In this document: one piece after another, positions 1,157 through 36,005 of the stretch
Numbering within the stretch: the first letter of the stretch is position 1
How the letters are laid out: each line of letters opens with the position of its first letter
Source of the DNA: a virus
Length of the DNA stretch: 64,000 nucleotides
UHGV virus genome: UHGV-0174779
Strand: one strand, 5' to 3'
Notes under the pieces: model-generated
What the model was told of the DNA's origin: nothing
The model's input: only the letters and a program-made list of their open reading frames with translations
Databases searched by the model: none
Translations under genes and position numbers: made by a program

Positions 1157-3400
1157 TTACTTTTTACTTCCAAGACGTTTGCCTGGAATCCGTGAATCTT
1201 TGAGAGAAGCTTGTTGCTCTTTCTTAGTTACATTTGCTTCTTTCTTCTGGAGTTCCAAAGTCTTATTTTGAATGCGTGATTGCTCATTAAGCTTCTCTTG
1301 GTCAACTTGATGGGACATAACCATCTGCAATTCTTTCAGTACAGACTCATACTGACGGACCTGCTGCTGCATAAGAGCTAACTTGTGCTTAGCTTGTTCC
1401 AGAGTTGCACTGTTATCTTCTTTACGGTTTTCCAGAGTCATAGCATCTGCTGCATTTTCTTGCTTGAACTGCAACTCTTCCTGACGAAGACTTAACTCAT
1501 CCGCAGCTTTCTGCTGTTCGAATGTAGTACGTTCACGCTGGTCGAATGCATCAGCAATCATCTTCTGAGAAGAGGCCTGTACGTTCTCAACCTGTGCTTT
1601 AGTCATCTCAAGCTGGAGGATTTCCATCGGAGAAGGCTGCGGAGGCTGATACTGTTCCAGAGGCAGAAGGTATTTGTGAGTGTCCTTAATACCCATCAAC
1701 TCAAAGATCTGTGCAGTCATGTAACGGTCTTGCTCCAAACCAAAGAGAGGTGCTAACTGTGCATCTGCTGCAATCAGCTGTTTCAAGCTAATCAGTTTCT
1801 GTGCACGTTCTGCTTTCTCATTAGGAGAAATAGCTACAACAACTTGAAGATTATGACGAGCTGGCAATTGTTTAGGGTTTACCTGAACCATACCACGAGG
1901 GGTTTGTACCTCAATAGGAACTTCACCATTTTCTCGGATAAGGCTGTAAATACCACGCATCAATTCAACCATACCATTGTGAGCAATGTTACGACATACC
2001 ATACGGAGACGGTTCTGTGCAGCATTCATCATCAAACCTACGGTTGCATAAGCGTTATCATTCTTAAACACATCAGGGTTGATACCCATGCCAAGTTTAG
2101 TTACACCTGTACGTGTCTCTTTAAGCTCCTCAGACATGCCTAGGAGGCCGTCAATACCTTGAGGTAGGTTATGGTATGGGAACAGGTCAATAGCGTCCTG
2201 ACGTTCCATTTCAACCACTCCACCGGGGCGGTTATCAAGCAGAGAGCGACGGTCGTATGCACCAACAAGAGCTTTGTATCGACCATAGTTAGCATTGTTG
2301 ACGTTATCAATATAACCACGAACTAACGCGGTACGTAAATCCTGAATATCTTTCGTAATGTCATAGACTGATTGACCATAGAAGGAACCCGGAATCGGAT
2401 ACGGGCAGAAGGTTACAAACGGAATGTGAGTTACTTCTTCAGTGTGAAGGATATGCTCACCAGCTTGAATAACCTGATAGAGTTTAGACTCTTTATTCTT
2501 ATCTAGAACACCTGTACGAATGTAGTGCTCATAAACCCAAACCATAGAAGCAATATCTTCGGTATCTGTGCCAATATCAGCATCAATATCCTGACGCCAG
2601 TCAGTACGAGACCAAGCAACTGTAGATTGAGTGGTATCCATCGTGTCTGTCCAGTCGTTGAATGCTTCAATCTCATCTTTAGGGAAGCCCATAGCAACCA
2701 GATCTTCTTTAGAACGACGTACACGATGACAGAAGTATTGTGCATCTGCAAAAGAGGTAGCATGTTCATCAACAAAGATTTGCTCTGAAGGAACATATTC
2801 AACTTTCACACGTTTAACAGTTTGTTCATAAGTAACTTTAACATCTACTGTACCATCTTCATTCTCTTCAGTGAAGATTTCCAGATTCTTAAGTCCACCA
2901 GCTTCTAGTCCCTGAACATATGCAGCCAATGCTTCCGGTGGTACACCTTCAGCTTCTTCAGTTTGAGTAGAAGTGTGCTCATCCCAATAGTATTTGATAA
3001 AAGAGTTACGAGTAACCAGGCATTCTTGTGCAGCAGAAGAGATAATATTGTATCCCGGATTGTCACGCAGAAGAATTTGGTTAACTAATTTAGTTGCTAC
3101 ATCAGCAGCATCAGAATCCTGTTGGTTGTCAGCTACGAAAGTAACCGCTTCATCACCAGAACAGAATACGTTAATAATATCTTGCAGTGTACCGTTAACA
3201 GATTCCCAAACAGTACGATCTACCCAACTAGAGCTGCCAGCAGTTACTGGTGCAGGTAAGTTACCATAGAAATATTCCCAAGCTTCACGAGCATAGCCCT
3301 TAACAGCCGTGTCAACGTAACCTTGAGCGTAATTAAAACGACGTTGAAGGTCAACACGTAACTCGTCCAACACCTCTTCACTATATTTTTGCTTAGCCAT
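1157..3400 (-). CDS. portal protein (putative)
   Basis: 747-aa ORF immediately downstream of terminase large subunit; size and position typical of portal; RBS GAGGGAGAG upstream. Confidence 0.6.
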   Translation of the reverse strand: MAKQKYSEEVLDELRVDLQRRFNYAQGYVDTAVKGYAREAWEYFYGNLPAPVTAGSSSWVDRTVWESVNGTLQDIINVFCSGDEAVTFVADNQQDSDAADVATKLVNQILLRDNPGYNIISSAAQECLVTRNSFIKYYWDEHTSTQTEEAEGVPPEALAAYVQGLEAGGLKNLEIFTEENEDGTVDVKVTYEQTVKRVKVEYVPSEQIFVDEHATSFADAQYFCHRVRRSKEDLVAMGFPKDEIEAFNDWTDTMDTTQSTVAWSRTDWRQDIDADIGTDTEDIASMVWVYEHYIRTGVLDKNKESKLYQVIQAGEHILHTEEVTHIPFVTFCPYPIPGSFYGQSVYDITKDIQDLRTALVRGYIDNVNNANYGRYKALVGAYDRRSLLDNRPGGVVEMERQDAIDLFPYHNLPQGIDGLLGMSEELKETRTGVTKLGMGINPDVFKNDNAYATVGLMMNAAQNRLRMVCRNIAHNGMVELMRGIYSLIRENGEVPIEVQTPRGMVQVNPKQLPARHNLQVVVAISPNEKAERAQKLISLKQLIAADAQLAPLFGLEQDRYMTAQIFELMGIKDTHKYLLPLEQYQPPQPSPMEILQLEMTKAQVENVQASSQKMIADAFDQRERTTFEQQKAADELSLRQEELQFKQENAADAMTLENRKEDNSATLEQAKHKLALMQQQVRQYESVLKELQMVMSHQVDQEKLNEQSRIQNKTLELQKKEANVTKKEQQASLKDSRIPGKRLGSKK

Positions 3401-15710: not shown

Positions 15711-15812
15711 AGAGCTCTTAGTGAGGGTGTATCTTCCCCGCCTTCTAAGCGGTCGTTAAAGAAGTAAATGGAGTATGCAGGTTCGAGTCCTGTCACCCTC
15801 GCTAAGAGCTCT
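15711..15812 (+). other. long hairpin (about 18-bp stem) enclosing a tRNA-like T-arm (GGTTCGAGTCC); possible RNase III site or degenerate tRNA-like element
   Basis: AGAGCTCTTAGTGAGGGTG pairs with CACCCTCGCTAAGAGCTCT; internal GCAGG-TTCGAGT-CCTGT resembles a T stem-loop; a UCU anticodon-like loop (CCGC-CTTCTAA-GCGG) is present but I could not fit a canonical cloverleaf. Confidence 0.3.
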
Positions 15813-15821
15813 TGAGGTATT

Positions 15822-16337
15822 ATGAAGCTAGATCTAAGTAAAGCAGTTGTTGATAAAGGTGTTGGTTATTTGTATGTGTACCAACCAACACACCCTATGG
15901 CCAATAAAGCTGGAAAGGTGTATGTTCATAGATATGTTGCTCAAAATTTCTACGGTGTCGAACTGAACTCTGACCTAGTGGTTCATCACAAGGATGAGAA
16001 TAAGTTAAACAACGAACCATCTAATTTAGAAATCATGACTTATGAGGAGCATAGCAGGCACCATCATGGGGCTGTCATGGAAGAAAGGTTATGTTCTTTT
16101 TGTGGAGAGATTTACCTTGTTTCAGAGAATAGCAACCAAAGGTTTTGCTCACAGCTTTGTGCCAAATTAGATAGCAGACGGTTTGAAATAACAAAAGAAT
16201 CTCTTCAGTCTTTAATAGACATTTACCCCGTGTATGTAGTAGGGAGGTTACTGAGTGTTAGTGATTCGGCTGTCCATAAGAGATGTAGGATTCTTGGTGT
16301 TGTTAAAAAGCCGAAAGGTTTTTGGTTAACTAAATAG
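15822..16337 (+). CDS. HNH endonuclease
   Basis: HNH motif (VVHHKDENKLNNEPSNLEIMTYEEH). Confidence 0.6.
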   Translation: MKLDLSKAVVDKGVGYLYVYQPTHPMANKAGKVYVHRYVAQNFYGVELNSDLVVHHKDENKLNNEPSNLEIMTYEEHSRHHHGAVMEERLCSFCGEIYLVSENSNQRFCSQLCAKLDSRRFEITKESLQSLIDIYPVYVVGRLLSVSDSAVHKRCRILGVVKKPKGFWLTK

Positions 16338-28769: not shown

Positions 28770-28974
28770 AATGAATTTTGAGAAAAGGCAGGCTCTTCGG
28801 AGGCTTGAAGCCAAGTATTTAATGTTACGGTGCAAAATCAACCGACACGAGCGTTTCGTTGAAGCTGCACAAACCAAAAACTTTGAATCATCAGTGGAGA
28901 TGTTCAAGACCCAACTTTCTTTTTATAGGAAAGAACAGGAACAAGTGTGGGATGAAATCCGTTCGTTCTACTAA
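28762..28974 (+). CDS. hypothetical protein (70 aa)
   Basis: ORF only. Confidence 0.4.
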   Translation: MTKMNFEKRQALRRLEAKYLMLRCKINRHERFVEAAQTKNFESSVEMFKTQLSFYRKEQEQVWDEIRSFY

Positions 28975-29000
28975 GCTCAAGGATTCCAAGGAGGAAGAGC

Positions 29001-30566
29001 ATGTCAAAGATCATTTTGGGAGACACAGGCTGTAAGGAATGTATCTCTCATGGTCGTGATAAAACCCACAACCACATGATTCTCTTCCGTAACGAAGAGA
29101 CCGGTGAGGAGTGGGGAAGTTGTAACCGTTGTGGGAATTACGAAGTGTTCGAAAAGGGCACTACACCTACTCCAAACGAGAAGAAAGAGTTATCCCCTGA
29201 AGAGTTGAGAGAAGTCTTAGATGATTGCTTAGAGCTTCCTCAGGGTGAACTTACTCGACGTTTAATCCCTAAAGCCGTATCAGAGCGTTTTGAGTGTCGC
29301 ATTGGCCTCAGCCAAACTGATGGTCAGACACCAGACAGTTACTTCTTTCCTCGTGAACGTGATGGAAACATCGTTGGTTACGAGGTTAAACTGCTAGATA
29401 GTAAGAAGTTTTATTACGTTGGCAGTGTGAAAGAAGCAGATTTATTTGGTATGGCACAGGCTCAGCGTGGTGATGTGTACAACAAGAAGCTATTCATTTT
29501 TGAAGACCCGCTATCTTGTATGTCTGGTTTCCATGTCCTTACAGCTTTTACAAATGCAACAAACATTAAGCCAGCATGTGTTTCTTTACCGTTCGGTGCA
29601 GGTTCAATCTCTTCTGTGTTGTCTCGTAATCGAGACTTCGTAAATGGTTTTGAGGAGGTTGTGCTCTGCATGGACAACGATGATGCAGGTGAGATAGCTT
29701 TAACAAAAGGTCGTTCTTTATTCCCTCATGTCAAGTTTGCTCGTATTCCTAAAGGAACTTTCCCATACAACGGTGTGGAGAAAGAGATTAAGGATGCGAA
29801 TGACATGCTTCTGTCTGGTCGTGGTCAAGAGTTATTCAACATTCTCAAGTATTCAGCAAAGCGGGAATCTCCTGCTGGTGCTGTAACAATCTTTGATTGT
29901 CTTGATGATGCTCTGAAGAAAGCAGAATGGGGTATCCCCTATCCGTGGAAGACTCTGAATGAAATGACCTTCGGTATTCGATGGGGAGAGGTGGTAGCAA
30001 TTGGTGGTGGAGTAGGGAGTGGTAAAACACTCATTGCTCACGAGCTGGTTGCTCATCTGTGCTTAGAGCATGGTTTTAATGGAGGTGGCTTCTTCTTGGA
30101 AGAGAAGGTAGGCATGTCTGTTAAGAACATTGCTGGTAAGTCAGCATCTATTCCTTTCCACCGACCAGATGTTGAATATGATGAGGAGGATTTGCGTAAT
30201 GAAGCACTTCGTTATGCAGACAAATTCTTCTTGTATGACAACTTCGGACAGAACGAATGGGAAGACATTAAACAGTGTATCCGTTTCTGGGTAGTTGAAA
30301 ACCAGTGTAAGTTTATCATCCTTGATAACATTACCGCTCTGGTATCTCATTTAACACCTTCAGAGATTAACACTGAAATCAGTAAGATTGCTTCCGAGCT
30401 TGCTGGTATGTGTAAAGAATTAGACTTTACCGCTTTCGTTCTATCTCACCTCAATGCTCCGGCAGGTGGTGCTCCTCACGAAGAAGGTGGACAGGTACGT
30501 GAAGTGCAGTTCACTGGTTCTCGTTCCCTTATGCGTAAACAAACCTGCGCATGTAAAACCTATTGA
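29001..30566 (+). CDS. DNA primase-helicase (T7 gp4-like), 5' portion; reading frame interrupted after helicase motif
   Basis: N-terminal Cys4 zinc ribbon, TOPRIM motifs (EDPLS, MDNDDAGE), Walker A GGGVGSGKT, Walker B FIILDN; C-terminal 11 residues before the stop look non-homologous; the remaining helicase C-terminus is encoded at 31133-31411. Confidence 0.8.
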   Translation: MSKIILGDTGCKECISHGRDKTHNHMILFRNEETGEEWGSCNRCGNYEVFEKGTTPTPNEKKELSPEELREVLDDCLELPQGELTRRLIPKAVSERFECRIGLSQTDGQTPDSYFFPRERDGNIVGYEVKLLDSKKFYYVGSVKEADLFGMAQAQRGDVYNKKLFIFEDPLSCMSGFHVLTAFTNATNIKPACVSLPFGAGSISSVLSRNRDFVNGFEEVVLCMDNDDAGEIALTKGRSLFPHVKFARIPKGTFPYNGVEKEIKDANDMLLSGRGQELFNILKYSAKRESPAGAVTIFDCLDDALKKAEWGIPYPWKTLNEMTFGIRWGEVVAIGGGVGSGKTLIAHELVAHLCLEHGFNGGGFFLEEKVGMSVKNIAGKSASIPFHRPDVEYDEEDLRNEALRYADKFFLYDNFGQNEWEDIKQCIRFWVVENQCKFIILDNITALVSHLTPSEINTEISKIASELAGMCKELDFTAFVLSHLNAPAGGAPHEEGGQVREVQFTGSRSLMRKQTCACKTY

Positions 30567-31132
30567 ACTCAGGGAAAGCTAAGTCGAAAGATATGCCAAT
30601 CCTGAGCTAAGCTAGACAGTCTTCCAAGAGCAAGGAGGCTTTATGGAAGAGAAACAAATAGAAGGTGCATCTAATTATTGGGTGCGGCCTGATGGTACGA
30701 TTTATAATAGTAAAACAGGCAATGTTATCTTAGGGGCCAGACATGGCAACGGATATTTAACTGTTTACTTAAGAATGGATACGGGACAAAGAAAGAAATT
30801 CTACATGCACCGACTAGTAGCTATTGCCTTTGTTCCTAACCCTCACAATTATCCATTTATTGATCACTTGGACCATACAAGAGATAATAACGTGGCAACT
30901 AATTTGGAGTGGGTAACCAACGCTGAGAATGTTCAGAGAGGTTACAATTTCTTTAATTATAAACGGAAGACTGTTTAGAAAGTGCAGAGACTAGGGTGGT
31001 CATAAGACCGAAGTACAGCCAAGTGGTGTCATTAACATTGACTTAAATGGAAGCAGTAGGCACACTTTTGTGTGGTGAGATAGTCCGATCTTGCAGGAAA
31101 CTGTAAGCAGCATGTAGTGGTGCGGGGTATGA
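30531..31132 (+). mobile_element. putative self-splicing (group I-like) intron carrying an HNH homing-endonuclease ORF, inserted in the primase-helicase gene (boundaries approximate)
   Basis: Helicase homology stops near 30530 and resumes near 31133 in an open frame without a start codon or RBS; intervening 0.6 kb contains HNH ORF 30643-30978. Confidence 0.45.
30643..30978 (+). CDS. HNH homing endonuclease (HNH_3 type)
   Basis: HRLVAIAFVPNPHNYPFIDHLDHTRDNNVATNLEWVTNAEN signature; RBS AAGGAGG. Confidence 0.8.
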   Translation: MEEKQIEGASNYWVRPDGTIYNSKTGNVILGARHGNGYLTVYLRMDTGQRKKFYMHRLVAIAFVPNPHNYPFIDHLDHTRDNNVATNLEWVTNAENVQRGYNFFNYKRKTV

Positions 31133-31411
31133 GTAGCGATCATATCTGAACTTTTGTGGTGTCAGTGTATCATTGGCTTTGAGCGTGACAAGCAAGCTGA
31201 TGGCTTAGCTAAGAACCTCTCAGTCATTCGATTACTGAAAGAACGTAACTACGGTCAGACAGGTGTCTGTTATACTAAGTATATCAGTGAGACCGGCAGA
31301 CTTGTAGAAAGGGAAGACTTTGAAGTTGACGAAGATAATCCATTCGTTTTAACTAACGGAGAGGATGCAGCTTCTCTCGTCAGTCAAGCAGATGGAGCTT
31401 CACCGTGGTAA
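31133..31411 (+). CDS. primase-helicase C-terminal segment (exon 2 or split C-terminal fragment)
   Basis: [47 protein letters not shown] aligns to the T7 gp4 C-terminal region ([46 protein letters not shown]); no ATG or RBS. Confidence 0.6.
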
Positions 31412-31962
31412 AGAAAAAGAAGAAAGTGTTTGCATTCGATATCGAGAGTAATGCACTATACGATGATATAACCAAAGTGTGGTGTATTTATATTTTCGAT
31501 GTTGAAACTGATGAAAGGTGGGGCTATCGGCCTCACCAAATTGAAGATGGGATTCGTAAGCTTACAGAAGCTGATGTGATCTTAGGTCATAACATTATTG
31601 ACTTCGACCTTTGTGCTCTGAAGAAAATGTATCCCAATCTGATCGACTATCGTTTTAACGTCTTCGACACTTTATGTCTTAGTCGATATCTTAAACCTGA
31701 CCGTATTGGTGACAGTCCTGAGTATCCGAAAGGCGACCCTAGACATGGCCCAAGAGGTCATGGCTTGAAGCAATGGGGTGAGTTCTTAGGGGAACTTAAA
31801 GGTGATTACGGTGAGCAAGAGGAAGCATGGGATGCTTTCACTGAGGATATGTTTACTTATTGTGAACAGGACGTTAACTTAACTGTTAAGGTTTATAAAT
31901 ACTTGTGTGAACTCACAGGATTTGACCCTTACGACCCACCTTCATTATATTGGAAAATGTAA
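31405..31962 (+). CDS. DNA polymerase A 3'-5' exonuclease domain, encoded as a separate ORF
   Basis: Exo I FDIES, Exo II HNIIDFD, Exo III YCEQD motifs. Confidence 0.8.
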
Positions 31963-35269: not shown

Positions 35270-35548
35270 ATGTCTAAAGTAATTAAGTTTTATAGTGATC
35301 AGTGTGCTCCATGTAAAGCAATGGCTCCTACCTTTGAGAAGGTTGTTAAGGAGTTTGATGTAGAAGTGGAAGAGATTAACATCCTTGAAGGTGATGGTCG
35401 TGAACAAGCTGTTAAGTATGGTGTACGAAGTATCCCTGCTTTCGTTGTGCCTGACCGTAACAGTGGTGCACACTACAGCCTCTCTGGTATGCAGACTGAA
35501 GCAAACCTGAAAGCATTTTTGGATACAGCTCTGAATGGTAATCGATGA
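35270..35548 (+). CDS. thioredoxin/glutaredoxin-like protein (CAPC active site)
   Basis: FYSDQCAPCKAMAP CxxC motif in thioredoxin-fold context. Confidence 0.65.
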   Translation: MSKVIKFYSDQCAPCKAMAPTFEKVVKEFDVEVEEINILEGDGREQAVKYGVRSIPAFVVPDRNSGAHYSLSGMQTEANLKAFLDTALNGNR

Positions 35549-36005
35549 TTTAGAGTATATCCCTGAAACTGGAGAGTTCTTTCGAAAAGGTAAGAAATTA
35601 GGAGGAACTCGAAGTAAGTACATAACCCTGCGGTTTAAAGGGAAAGTACACAAAGCTCATAAAGTGGCATGGTTCTTTTACTATGGAGAATGGCCTTCTT
35701 CTCAGATAGACCATATCGATAGAAATAAGAAGAACAACTCAATACAGAACTTGAGGTTGGTGGACACCTCGACAAACTGCCACAACCAGTTCGGGGCTAG
35801 AGTATCAAACAAGGAAACAGGGCTTCAAGGTGTTAAGGTTGTCAAATACAGATCAGGCACTATCAGATATAGGGCTGTTATTTGTATTGATAAAGTAGAT
35901 ATACATCTAGGTATGTATGGAACTGCCGAAGAAGCTCATCAAGTTTACATGAATCGAAAAAAGGAACTTTTAATTGAACGAACAACTACAAGCAACACTG
36001 ATTGA
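35535..36005 (+). CDS. HNH homing endonuclease (HNH_3 plus AP2-like domain)
   Basis: KAHKVAWFFYYGEWPSSQIDHIDRNKKNNSIQNLRLVDTSTNCHNQ plus RYRAVICIDKVDIHLGMYGTAEEAHQVY. Confidence 0.7.
   Translation: MVIDDLEYIPETGEFFRKGKKLGGTRSKYITLRFKGKVHKAHKVAWFFYYGEWPSSQIDHIDRNKKNNSIQNLRLVDTSTNCHNQFGARVSNKETGLQGVKVVKYRSGTIRYRAVICIDKVDIHLGMYGTAEEAHQVYMNRKKELLIERTTTSNTD

What the first reader, a model, noticed from the sequence alone, without database searches (positions are those of the whole stretch)
29001..31411. Primase-helicase gene interrupted by a 0.6-kb insert carrying an HNH homing endonuclease
T7 gp4-like homology runs through the helicase H4 region, then the frame diverges and stops at 30566. The missing C-terminal helicase segment resumes at about 31133 in a frame with no start codon or RBS. 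Between them lies an HNH_3 ORF with its own RBS. This fits a self-splicing group I intron with a homing endonuclease; the alternative is a gene split into two polypeptides.
Basis: partly seen in the sequence, partly recalled or inferred. Interest (0 to 1): 0.65.

Follow-up and report, generated by a model that had tools for sequence, protein, structure and literature searches.

The report
Mobile group I intron in helicase gene
The primase-helicase gene of this E. coli phage (a Kuravirus) is interrupted by a 620-base self-splicing-type (group I) intron that carries its own small DNA-cutting enzyme; this is a familiar kind of selfish phage element, found here at a site not present in the catalogued phage genomes I searched.

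Summary
Compared with the intron-less gene of phage SU10 (about 97% identical DNA), the insert is exactly window 30537-31156 (620 nt). Removing it gives a 596-aa protein that differs from SU10's at 2 residues.

The insert has the hallmarks of a group I intron:
- It follows a U and ends in G.
- Exon AUGCGU pairs with intron GCGCAU, with a U.G pair at the splice site (P1).
- It matches Rfam Intron_gpI across P3-P9, though below the gathering score.
- Its helices covary in 10 related introns: 92.8% of cells paired against 30-39% in slid controls, and 34 pairs changed on both sides.

The 111-aa HNH ORF (30643-30978) sits in the P6 loop. It matches the N-terminal two thirds of I-HmuI and is under strong purifying selection (dN/dS 0.02-0.07).

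The intron splits helicase motif H4. Exon 2 encodes the residue aligned with the T7 arginine finger, so splicing should be essential.

None of 99 related catalogued phages has this intron at this site, but several metagenome assemblies do.

Verdict: a new member of a known kind, of modest interest. Splicing itself was not tested.

The parts
29001..30536 (+). Exon 1 of the T7 gp4-like primase-helicase gene (codons 1-512; ends ...CTT ATG CGT)
   Evidence: ORF list. Pfam DnaB_C and Toprim_2. Alignment to intron-less SU10 ends at 30536. T7 gp4 alignment puts R512 opposite T7 R493, inside motif H4 (motif H4 = residues 480-500 per PMC1616965).
30537..31156 (+). Group I intron, 620 nt: starts AAACAAACC, ends ...CUGAACUUUUG with terminal G at 31156
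   Evidence: Exact gap in the alignment to SU10. Rfam Intron_gpI match. Covariation. Same insert in L004-L009, L011 and a divergent version in L010.
30530..30553 (+). P1 hairpin: exon (U)AUGCGU 30530-30536 pairs with internal guide sequence GCGCAU(G) 30547-30553. U30536.G30547 is the splice-site wobble pair. Loop ACC 30543-30545 can pair with exon-2 GGU 31158-31160 (weak P10).
   Evidence: Read from the sequence. Recovered by unconstrained MFE folding. In one search the splice-site pair is U.G in 9 of 10 rows. By reading the sequences, equivalent P1 helices form from different sequences in the site-A intron (CUUCGGU/GCCGAAG) and the site-C intron (GGAAGU/GCUUCC).
30564..30566 (+). TGA that ends translation of unspliced mRNA nine codons into the intron (giving the 521-aa truncated product)
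30559..30623 (+). Ribozyme 5' half: P3 5' strand (30559-65), P4 (30568-74/30600-06), P5 with GAAA loop (30578-96), P6 5' strand (30612-23)
   Evidence: cmscan alignment, MFE fold, pair counts. Positions 30537-30642 are 100% identical in all same-site copies.
30632..30638 (+). Shine-Dalgarno sequence AAGGAGG for the intron ORF, 4 nt before the ATG
   Evidence: Sequence. The same motif sits in the P6 loop of the related introns in L002, L003 and L010.
30643..30978 (+). Intron-encoded HNH endonuclease, 111 aa, I-HmuI-like but lacking the C-terminal helix-turn-helix part. Its last codons and UAG stop lie in the P6 3' strand.
   Evidence: Pfam HNH_3. PHROG 59. PDB 1u3e, E 9.9e-13, over residues 1-99 of 174. 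AlphaFold model pLDDT 93; Foldseek to 1u3e TM 0.79. dN/dS 0.016-0.07.
30967..31107 (+). Ribozyme 3' half: P6 3' strand (30967-78), P7 5' GACUA (30989-93), P7.1 (30997-31010), P7.2 (31019-50), P3 3' strand (31054-60), P8 (31061-74), P7 3' UAGUC (31081-85), P9 with GAAA loop (31090-31107)
   Evidence: cmscan alignment, MFE fold, pair counts and covariation, compensatory changes between natural copies.
31108..31156 (+). 3' extension with terminal hairpin GUAUGA/UCAUAU (31127-32/31140-45), then CUGAACUUUUG ending in the terminal G (31156). A candidate helix at 31108-31122 is not supported.
   Evidence: G31131-C31141 becomes A-U and U31130-A31142 becomes C-G in L004 and L011. Helix 13 is supported and helix 12 is not.
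31157..31411 (+). Exon 2 of the primase-helicase gene (codons 513-596 plus TAA). It encodes R542, aligned with the T7 arginine finger R522. Its stop overlaps the GTG start (31405) of the DNA polymerase exonuclease gene.
   Evidence: Alignment to SU10. Spliced translation. T7 alignment. R522 is the arginine finger per PMC1616965.

Best explanation
Window 30537-31156 is a mobile group I intron in the gp4-like primase-helicase gene of a Kuravirus-type E. coli phage. It resembles subgroup IA: it has P7.1 and P7.2 and no evident P2. The gene is transcribed through the intron. The RNA folds into the P1-P9 ribozyme, and an external guanosine attacks after U30536, which lies in the U.G pair of P1. The freed exon 1 then attacks after G31156 and joins ...CUU AUG CGU to UGG UGU CAG.... 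The spliced mRNA encodes a full 596-aa primase-helicase. Unspliced mRNA would give a 521-aa protein cut inside motif H4 and lacking the arginine finger, so splicing should be needed for replication. The 111-aa HNH enzyme encoded in the P6 loop has its own ribosome-binding site. It most likely nicks or cuts the intron-less allele in co-infecting relatives, so that repair copies the intron in (homing). Shown here: the anatomy, the RNA structure conservation and covariation, selection on the ORF, and presence/absence polymorphism. Inferred: splicing chemistry, endonuclease activity and target, and homing.
For: Precise insertion: the gap against SU10 is exactly 30537-31156. The spliced product matches SU10 at 595 of 597 compared positions, stop included.

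Splice-site hallmarks: U before the 5' site, G at 31156, and P1 AUGCGU/GCGCAU with a U.G pair.

Rfam RF00028: 30.5 bits, E 1.3e-5 over model positions 1-253 in a 1.2-kb search. Same-site copies score 45.0 and 41.7 bits. A GenBank-annotated phage DNA-polymerase intron (phage AlexBoehm) scores 39.1, also below the cut-off of 50.

Covariation over 10 introns from 4 insertion sites: 92.8% of cells paired against 30-39% with slid partners; 34 pairs changed on both sides against 6-13; 0 of 500 shuffles reach the observed values. P3 and P9 are 100% paired and covary. P4 (one U.G for C-G change) and P7 are essentially invariant.

Between near-identical copies, the changes in the 3' non-coding part fall in loops or joining regions, or keep their helices paired (compensatory pairs or G-C/G.U/A-U switches). 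The one exception is G31119A in L011, which lies in the unsupported candidate helix.

Window against L005: the non-coding ribozyme differs at 3 of 284 positions, while the ORF has dS 0.97 and dN/dS 0.016.

HNH ORF: Pfam HNH_3 above its cut-off. I-HmuI is matched by sequence (E 9.9e-13) and by fold (TM 0.79). D74, H75 and N96 of the window protein align with the same-numbered I-HmuI residues; H75 is invariant and N96 nearly so among 32 homologues.

Polymorphism: 0 of 99 related phage records carry the intron at this site. O18-011 lacks it yet has identical flanking exon sequence (45 of 45 nt upstream, 44 of 45 downstream).

A diverged phage (L010; exon 1 about 59% aa identity) has a diverged intron at exactly the same site.

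Exon 2 holds the residue aligned with the T7 arginine finger R522.
Against: There is no RNA evidence, so splicing is inferred. The Rfam score is below the curated gathering score (30.5 against 50), and the default whole-window scan missed the intron. P10 is weak (3 bp) and no P2 helix is evident. The HNH protein lacks the C-terminal DNA-binding helix-turn-helix of I-HmuI, so its target specificity and activity are uncertain. The pair counts include five near-identical same-site copies, so the shuffle control overstates significance; the slid-partner control and the divergent introns carry the weight.
Confidence: 0.9

Rival explanations
1. The gene is truly split. A free-standing HNH endonuclease cassette was inserted, and the helicase is made as two polypeptides (521 aa and about 85 aa) that associate after translation, as in some phage genes split by mobile endonuclease genes.
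For: the ORF listing reports an ORF at 31154-31411 starting at TTG. Free-standing short HNH homologues exist in other phages, and this window has two free-standing HNH genes.
Against: TTG 31154 has no Shine-Dalgarno sequence upstream. The 284 nt of flanking non-coding sequence fold into a covarying group I core and are more conserved than synonymous sites, which a simple cassette does not explain. The split would fall inside motif H4 and detach the arginine-finger segment. The insert boundaries show U/G and P1 features.
Confidence: 0.03
2. The insert is a decayed intron that no longer splices, or splices only with host or phage protein help. The helicase gene in this phage would then be a pseudogene or poorly expressed.
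For: The Rfam score is below the gathering score. P2 is absent, P10 is weak, and the endonuclease is short.
Against: A replicative helicase is expected to be essential for the phage. The same intron persists in several distinct phage genomes with compensatory substitutions and a fully conserved 5' core. Both exons remain intact and in frame. The ORF is under strong purifying selection. A GenBank-annotated intron control also scores below the gathering score.
Confidence: 0.05
3. The insert is an assembly artefact or chimera that joins unrelated sequence into the helicase gene.
For: None specific. This is only a generic risk if the window comes from a metagenome assembly.
Against: The same 620-nt insert lies at the same junction in independent assemblies from IMG/VR, ENA, Logan and a GenBank WGS record. 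These copies differ by point substitutions.
Confidence: 0.01

Closest known systems
ORF-containing group I introns in phage DNA-metabolism genes (T4 td, nrdB, nrdD; SPO1 and T7-like phage DNA polymerase; Vequintavirus DNA polymerase, e.g. phage AlexBoehm; Staphylococcus Twort-like phage helicase, polymerase and reductase genes)
   Same: Same core architecture with an endonuclease ORF looped out of a peripheral helix. Inserted in a highly conserved motif of a replication gene. Present or absent among close relatives. The 3' 85 nt of this intron are about 77% identical to the annotated AlexBoehm DNA polymerase intron region. Introns in phage helicase genes are reported for Staphylococcus phages (PMC5526547).
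   Different: Different host gene and site: the gp4-like primase-helicase of a Kuravirus, after the codon aligned with T7 R493. No P2 is evident. No paper on Kuravirus introns was found in the searchable library. No catalogued phage record carries this intron at this site.
I-HmuI (SPO1 DNA polymerase intron HNH nicking endonuclease, PDB 1u3e)
   Same: 35% identity over residues 1-99. The predicted fold matches (TM 0.79). D74, H75 and N96 align with the same-numbered I-HmuI residues. Both are encoded inside a phage group I intron.
   Different: 111 aa against 174 aa. The C-terminal helical and helix-turn-helix DNA-binding part of I-HmuI is absent. Many homologues of about 110-120 aa exist, some free-standing. 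Nicking and site preference are untested.
Sister introns in the same Kuravirus replication module (site A in VTCCBPA_211 and MAUZ01000001.1; site C in ENA NODE_35; the O18-011 element after the helicase stop codon)
   Same: Same family. P4 and P7 are nearly identical. The P3-P5 segment of this intron is 90% identical to the site-A intron, and its P7-P7.2 segment is 96% identical to the O18-011 element. All have an HNH ORF with an AAGGAGG motif in the P6 loop.
   Different: Different insertion sites: Walker A codons GVGS|GKT; codons FG|QN; and the helicase/polymerase gene junction. Their guide sequences and P3, P6, P8 and P9 sequences differ, and their HNH proteins are longer (164-176 aa).

Membership tests
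Group I intron (Rfam RF00028) | P1 helix between the end of exon 1 and an internal guide sequence, with a U.G wobble pair at the 5' splice site | tested here: met
   AUGCGU (30531-36) pairs with GCGCAU (30547-52), with U30536.G30547. In one search this pair is U.G in 9 of 10 related introns.
Group I intron (Rfam RF00028) | Terminal G (omega G) immediately before the 3' splice site | tested here: met
   G31156 is the last base of the insert as defined by alignment to SU10. The site-A and site-C introns also end in ...UUG.
Group I intron (Rfam RF00028) | Conserved catalytic core: P3-P9 with the P3/P7 pseudoknot and P7 consensus sequences | tested here: met
   cmscan aligns model positions 1-253, and AGACUA ... 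GAUAGUC match the consensus. In one search, P3, P4, P7 and P9 are 100% paired across 10 introns; P3, P6, P8 and P9 have 4-8 pairs changed on both sides.
Group I intron (Rfam RF00028) | Score at or above Rfam's gathering cut-off (a curated search threshold, not a biological property) | tested here: not met
   30.5 bits against 50, and no hit in gathering mode. Controls: same-site copies score 45.0 and 41.7; the GenBank-annotated AlexBoehm DNA polymerase intron scores 39.1. All are below 50. The 343-nt ORF insert and the P7.1/P7.2 insert are penalised by the model.
Group I intron (Rfam RF00028) | Removal restores an uninterrupted reading frame identical to intron-less homologues | tested here: met
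   The spliced translation matches SU10 at 595 of 597 compared positions, stop included.
Group I intron (Rfam RF00028) | Guanosine-initiated self-splicing of the RNA | not testable with these tools
   Needs in vitro transcription and splicing assays, or RNA-seq.
I-HmuI-like HNH homing endonuclease (Pfam HNH_3, with NUMOD4-type N-terminus) | HNH_3 domain above the Pfam cut-off, with the key HNH residues aligned to I-HmuI | tested here: met
   34.2 bits against 24.8. D74, H75 and N96 align with the same-numbered I-HmuI residues. H75, N83 and N87 are invariant and N96 nearly invariant in 32 homologues. That D74, H75 and N96 are the I-HmuI catalytic residues is from memory.
I-HmuI-like HNH homing endonuclease (Pfam HNH_3, with NUMOD4-type N-terminus) | Overall fold: N-terminal beta-sheet DNA-binding domain plus beta-beta-alpha metal core | tested here: met
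   AlphaFold model pLDDT 93.2. Foldseek to 1u3e: E 9.5e-10, TM 0.79 on the query.
I-HmuI-like HNH homing endonuclease (Pfam HNH_3, with NUMOD4-type N-terminus) | C-terminal helix-turn-helix DNA-binding domain as in I-HmuI | tested here: not met
   The protein ends at residue 111, and only I-HmuI residues 1-99 are matched. The protein therefore works like, and is related to, I-HmuI, but it is a shorter architectural variant. This short form is common among homologues.
I-HmuI-like HNH homing endonuclease (Pfam HNH_3, with NUMOD4-type N-terminus) | Site-specific nicking or cleavage of the intron-less allele, and homing in mixed infection | not testable with these tools
   Indirect support only: presence/absence polymorphism on identical exon backgrounds and purifying selection on the ORF.
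T7 gp4-like primase-helicase (host gene) | Toprim primase region plus DnaB/RecA-type helicase domain with Walker A, motif H4 and an arginine finger | tested here: met
   Pfam DnaB_C is above its cut-off; Toprim_2 is weak. T7 gp4 structures match at E 1.5e-32 over residues 117-571. GSGKT is present, and R512 and R542 align with T7 R493 and R522.

The most novel reading that the evidence does not exclude
The Kuravirus replication-module introns may form one recombining family that swaps ribozyme segments and occasionally jumps to new sites by illegitimate DNA events. The family includes this intron, two further sites in the same helicase gene, and the O18-011 element. The O18-011 element ends in a 43-nt copy of the helicase sequence that lies just upstream of this intron's 5' splice site. 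That copy stops 5 nt before the insertion site, which might mark the endonuclease's cut position. If so, it would be a preserved molecular scar of ectopic intron transposition. In addition, the 111-aa HNH enzyme without a helix-turn-helix would be a minimal homing nuclease.
Probability: 0.25. Interest if true: 0.5.

Novelty: new member of a known kind. Interest (0 to 1): 0.3.

Why it matters
Practically, automatic annotation will call this essential replication gene as a truncated helicase plus an orphan 85-aa ORF. The relatives O18-011 and VTCCBPA_211 are already annotated in that fragmented way. The correct gene model is join(29001..30536, 31157..31411).

Biologically, this adds the gp4-like primase-helicase of Kuraviruses to the phage replication genes colonised by mobile introns. 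Kuraviruses are a group used in phage-therapy collections. At least three insertion sites lie in conserved parts of this one gene (one in the Walker A codons, this one in motif H4). The family could serve as a natural system for studying intron competition, core-segment exchange and exclusion between co-infecting phages. It does not change what is known about how such introns work.

Tried and rejected
- Rfam at gathering thresholds over the whole window found only a marginal tRNA hit and missed the intron. The E-value mode was needed.
- The P1 that cmscan placed at 30374-30410 is spurious. The real P1 was found by hand from the splice site fixed by homology.
- A candidate helix at 31108-31122 from the MFE fold is not supported: 72% paired, no covariation, and G31119A in L011 breaks it.
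- MFE folding cannot show P7 because P3 and P7 form a pseudoknot. P7 was assigned from the Rfam alignment and tested by pair counting.
- The MAFFT alignment puts P1, P6 and P8 of the most divergent introns partly out of register, so some unpaired cells are alignment artefacts. I did not build a structure-aware alignment.
- I could not find a canonical P1 with a U.G pair, or an in-frame splice, for the O18-011 element. Whether it splices or is an intergenic relic is unresolved.
- My first script check of the exon-copy haplotype was off by one base and uninformative. BLAST confirmed the copy instead.
- The dN/dS script failed on L006 (math domain error), so those values are not reported.
- Literature searches for Kuravirus or phiEco32 introns, or for introns in gp4-like primase-helicase genes, found nothing directly relevant.
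- Intein, group II intron and translational bypass were considered and dropped. The insert has in-frame stops, a group I core, and is 620 nt long.
Full report
**1. What is in the sequence**

The region holds three ORFs on the + strand:
- 29001-30566 (521 aa). This is a T7 gp4-like primase-helicase: Pfam DnaB_C at 41.6 bits (cut-off 27) with a weak Toprim_2 hit, and T7 gp4 structures at E 1.5e-32.
- 30643-30978 (111 aa). This is an HNH_3 protein at 34.2 bits (cut-off 24.8), preceded by AAGGAGG at 30632-30638.
- 31154-31411 (85 aa). It has no Pfam hit. Its frame is open from 31133, and its only start-like codon (TTG 31154) has no Shine-Dalgarno sequence upstream.

**2. Exact boundaries**

The window is a Kuravirus (subfamily Gordonclarkvirinae, the SU10/ES17/phiEco32 group). 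A search with 28900-31500 matched 99 phage records; 70 of them are 95-99% identical. Almost all cover 76% of the query in two pieces, which means they lack about 620 nt. No record covers 80% or more.

A global alignment to the intron-less SU10 gene (L001) leaves one gap, exactly window 30537-31156. Neither boundary can shift. Joining 30536 to 31157 gives ...SLMR|[10 protein letters not shown]... and a 596-aa protein. It matches SU10's product at 595 of 597 compared positions, stop included.

**3. Group I intron hallmarks**

- The base before the insert is U30536, and the last base of the insert is G31156.
- Exon AUGCGU (30531-36) pairs with GCGCAU (30547-52) ten bases into the insert. This gives a P1 helix with a U.G pair at the splice site, and unconstrained folding recovers it.
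- Rfam's Intron_gpI model aligns end to end (positions 1-253) at 30.5 bits, E 1.3e-5 in a 1.2-kb search. In the whole-window E-value search the two halves score 28.7 and 24.8 bits.
- This is below the gathering score of 50, and the default scan missed the intron.
- As a control, the DNA polymerase intron annotated in GenBank for phage AlexBoehm scores 39.1 bits. The same-site copies in L006 and L011 score 45.0 and 41.7. ORF-bearing phage introns of this type therefore fall below the cut-off as a rule.

The cmscan alignment and the fold give this layout:
- P3: 30559-65 with 31054-60
- P4: 30568-74 with 30600-06
- P5, with a GAAA loop
- P6: a 12-bp helix, 30612-23 with 30967-78, that encloses the ORF
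- P7: GACUA 30989-93 with UAGUC 31081-85, forming a pseudoknot with P3
- P7.1 and P7.2, two extra hairpins between P7 and the 3' strand of P3
- P8: 31061-74
- P9, with a GAAA loop: 31090-31107
- a terminal hairpin: 31127-45

The P7.1/P7.2 pair is the feature I recall as typical of subgroup IA; this is from memory and was not tested. No P2 is evident. P10 would be only 3 bp.

**4. Independent copies and covariation**

The exon-intron junction occurs in another IMG/VR phage genome, L004. It also occurs in the GenBank WGS record MAUZ01000001.1 (L011). The HNH protein cluster led to further ENA and Logan contigs, L005-L009. These are distinct phages, 93-97% identical to the window.

Among the full-length copies (L004-L007, L011), the 106 nt before the ORF are invariant. 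Changes in the 3' non-coding part fall in loops or joining regions, or keep their helices paired:
- U31000-A31007 becomes G-C (in L004, L005 and L007).
- G31131-C31141 becomes A-U and U31130-A31142 becomes C-G (in L004 and L011).
- C31008U in L004 gives G.U, and G31127A in L004, L006 and L011 gives A-U.
- The one exception is G31119A in L011, which lies in the unsupported candidate helix.

A much more divergent phage, L010, has exon 1 about 59% identical in protein. It carries a diverged intron at exactly the same codon. Its P6, P8 and P9 sequences are different but still pair.

Related introns sit at other places in the module:
- site A, at codons FG|QN (VTCCBPA_211, L011)
- site C, in the Walker A codons GVGS|GKT (L006)
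- an element after the helicase stop codon in O18-011

I aligned ten ORF-excised cores and counted pairs on my structure:
- 92.8% of cells are paired, against 30-39% with partners slid by 1-3 columns.
- 34 pairs have changes on both sides, against 6-13 in the slid controls.
- 0 of 500 shuffles reach the observed values.
- P3 and P9 are 100% paired, with 4 and 6 covarying pairs.
- P4 and P7 are 100% paired and essentially invariant (P4 shows a single C-G to U.G change).
- The candidate helix at 31108-31122 is not supported.

Five rows are near-identical, so the shuffle statistic is inflated. The slid control and the divergent rows carry the argument.

**5. The endonuclease**

The 111-aa protein matches I-HmuI (PDB 1u3e) residues 1-99 at E 9.9e-13. 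D74, H75 and N96 of the window protein align with the same-numbered I-HmuI residues. H75 is invariant and N96 nearly invariant in 32 homologues. An AlphaFold model (pLDDT 93.2) matches 1u3e at TM 0.79, E 9.5e-10.

It lacks the C-terminal helical and helix-turn-helix region of I-HmuI (about 75 aa). Short forms of about 110-120 aa are common among homologues, and some are free-standing phage genes.

Against the other copies, dN/dS is 0.016-0.07 with dS up to 0.97. Against L005, the non-coding ribozyme differs at only 3 of 284 positions. Both the protein and the RNA are therefore under purifying selection. The ORF has diverged far more at silent sites than the ribozyme has.

**6. Consequence for the host gene**

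In the T7 gp4 alignment, R512, the last codon of exon 1, aligns with T7 R493. That residue lies inside motif H4 (residues 480-500). R542 in exon 2 aligns with R522, the arginine finger (PMC1616965). A 521-aa unspliced product would lack the arginine finger, so it should be inactive. Splicing is therefore expected to be essential. Insertion in a conserved catalytic motif is typical of homing introns.

**7. Mobility**

O18-011 lacks the intron, yet its flanking exon sequence is identical to the window's: 45 of 45 nt upstream and 44 of 45 downstream. Intron-bearing copies sit on at least two exon haplotypes. This is the presence/absence pattern expected for homing. Homing itself was not shown.

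**8. Comparison with known systems and novelty**

This is the standard phage arrangement: a group I intron with an HNH endonuclease in a replication gene. Examples are T4 td and nrdB, SPO1 and T7-like DNA polymerase introns, and Staphylococcus phage helicase introns (PMC5526547).

Segments of this core are 77-92% identical to introns or unannotated intergenic sequence in Vequintavirus, Aeromonas, Vibrio and Pseudoalteromonas phages.

I found no report of Kuravirus introns in the searchable literature. No catalogued phage carries this intron at this site. It is therefore a new member of a known kind. Interest is modest (0.3). The value lies in correct annotation and in a multi-site intron family within one gene.

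**9. Rivals**

- A truly split gene (0.03) lacks a start and ribosome-binding site for the C-terminal piece. It also does not explain the conserved, covarying non-coding RNA.
- A dead intron (0.05) conflicts with the selection seen on the RNA, the ORF and the exons.
- An assembly artefact (0.01) is excluded by the independent assemblies.

Noticed in passing
L002 (Escherichia phage O18-011) 2392-3231, especially 3188-3230: An intron-like element with an HNH ORF sits between the helicase stop codon and the polymerase-exonuclease start. It ends in a 43-nt copy of the helicase exon sequence that lies just upstream of this window's intron site (window about 30488-30530), stopping 5 nt before the insertion site. 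BLAST matches those 43 nt to the primase/helicase gene of about 30 Kuraviruses at 95.5-97.7%. The element is unique to O18-011 in the phage collection. I found no canonical P1 or in-frame splice for it. It may be a scar of ectopic movement.
   Followed up: partly
L003 1850-2588; L011 3984-4722; L006 1080-1878: Two further intron sites lie in the same primase-helicase gene of relatives. Site A is at codons F-G|Q-N. Site C is in the Walker A codons GVGS|GKT. Each has its own P1 with a U.G pair, a terminal G, and an HNH ORF in P6. L006 and L011 each carry two introns at once. The exon codons next to site A differ at synonymous positions between intron-bearing VTCCBPA_211 and intron-less SU10.
   Followed up: partly
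window 30553-30612 and 30978-31054, compared with L003 and L002: The introns are mosaic. The P3-P5 segment of this intron is 90% identical to the site-A intron. Its P7-P7.2 segment is 96% identical to the O18-011 element. The rest differs, which suggests exchange of core segments between introns.
   Followed up: no
window 30643-30978 compared with L005 and L006: The HNH ORF has near-saturated synonymous divergence (dS 0.74-0.97) between copies whose ribozyme parts are about 99% identical and whose exon 2 shows dS of about 0.16 (window against L005). The ORF and the ribozyme seem to have different histories or constraints.
   Followed up: partly
window 15723-15801 and 15822-16337: Rfam reports a marginal tRNA hit (30.2 bits, cut-off 29) that ARAGORN does not find. 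It is followed immediately by a 171-aa HNH-like ORF.
   Followed up: no
window 35535-36005: A second apparently free-standing HNH-like ORF (156 aa) lies between two ORFs and overlaps both. It has a weak phmmer match to the VTCCBPA_211 intron HNH protein. No group I signal was found nearby.
   Followed up: no
L005 375-866: One intron-bearing relative also has an extra NUMOD4/HNH_3 gene (163 aa) inserted just upstream of the primase-helicase start.
   Followed up: no
window 31405-31411: The helicase stop codon TAA overlaps the GTG start of the DNA polymerase exonuclease-subunit gene (GTGGTAA). This is the same spot where the O18-011 element is inserted.
   Followed up: no
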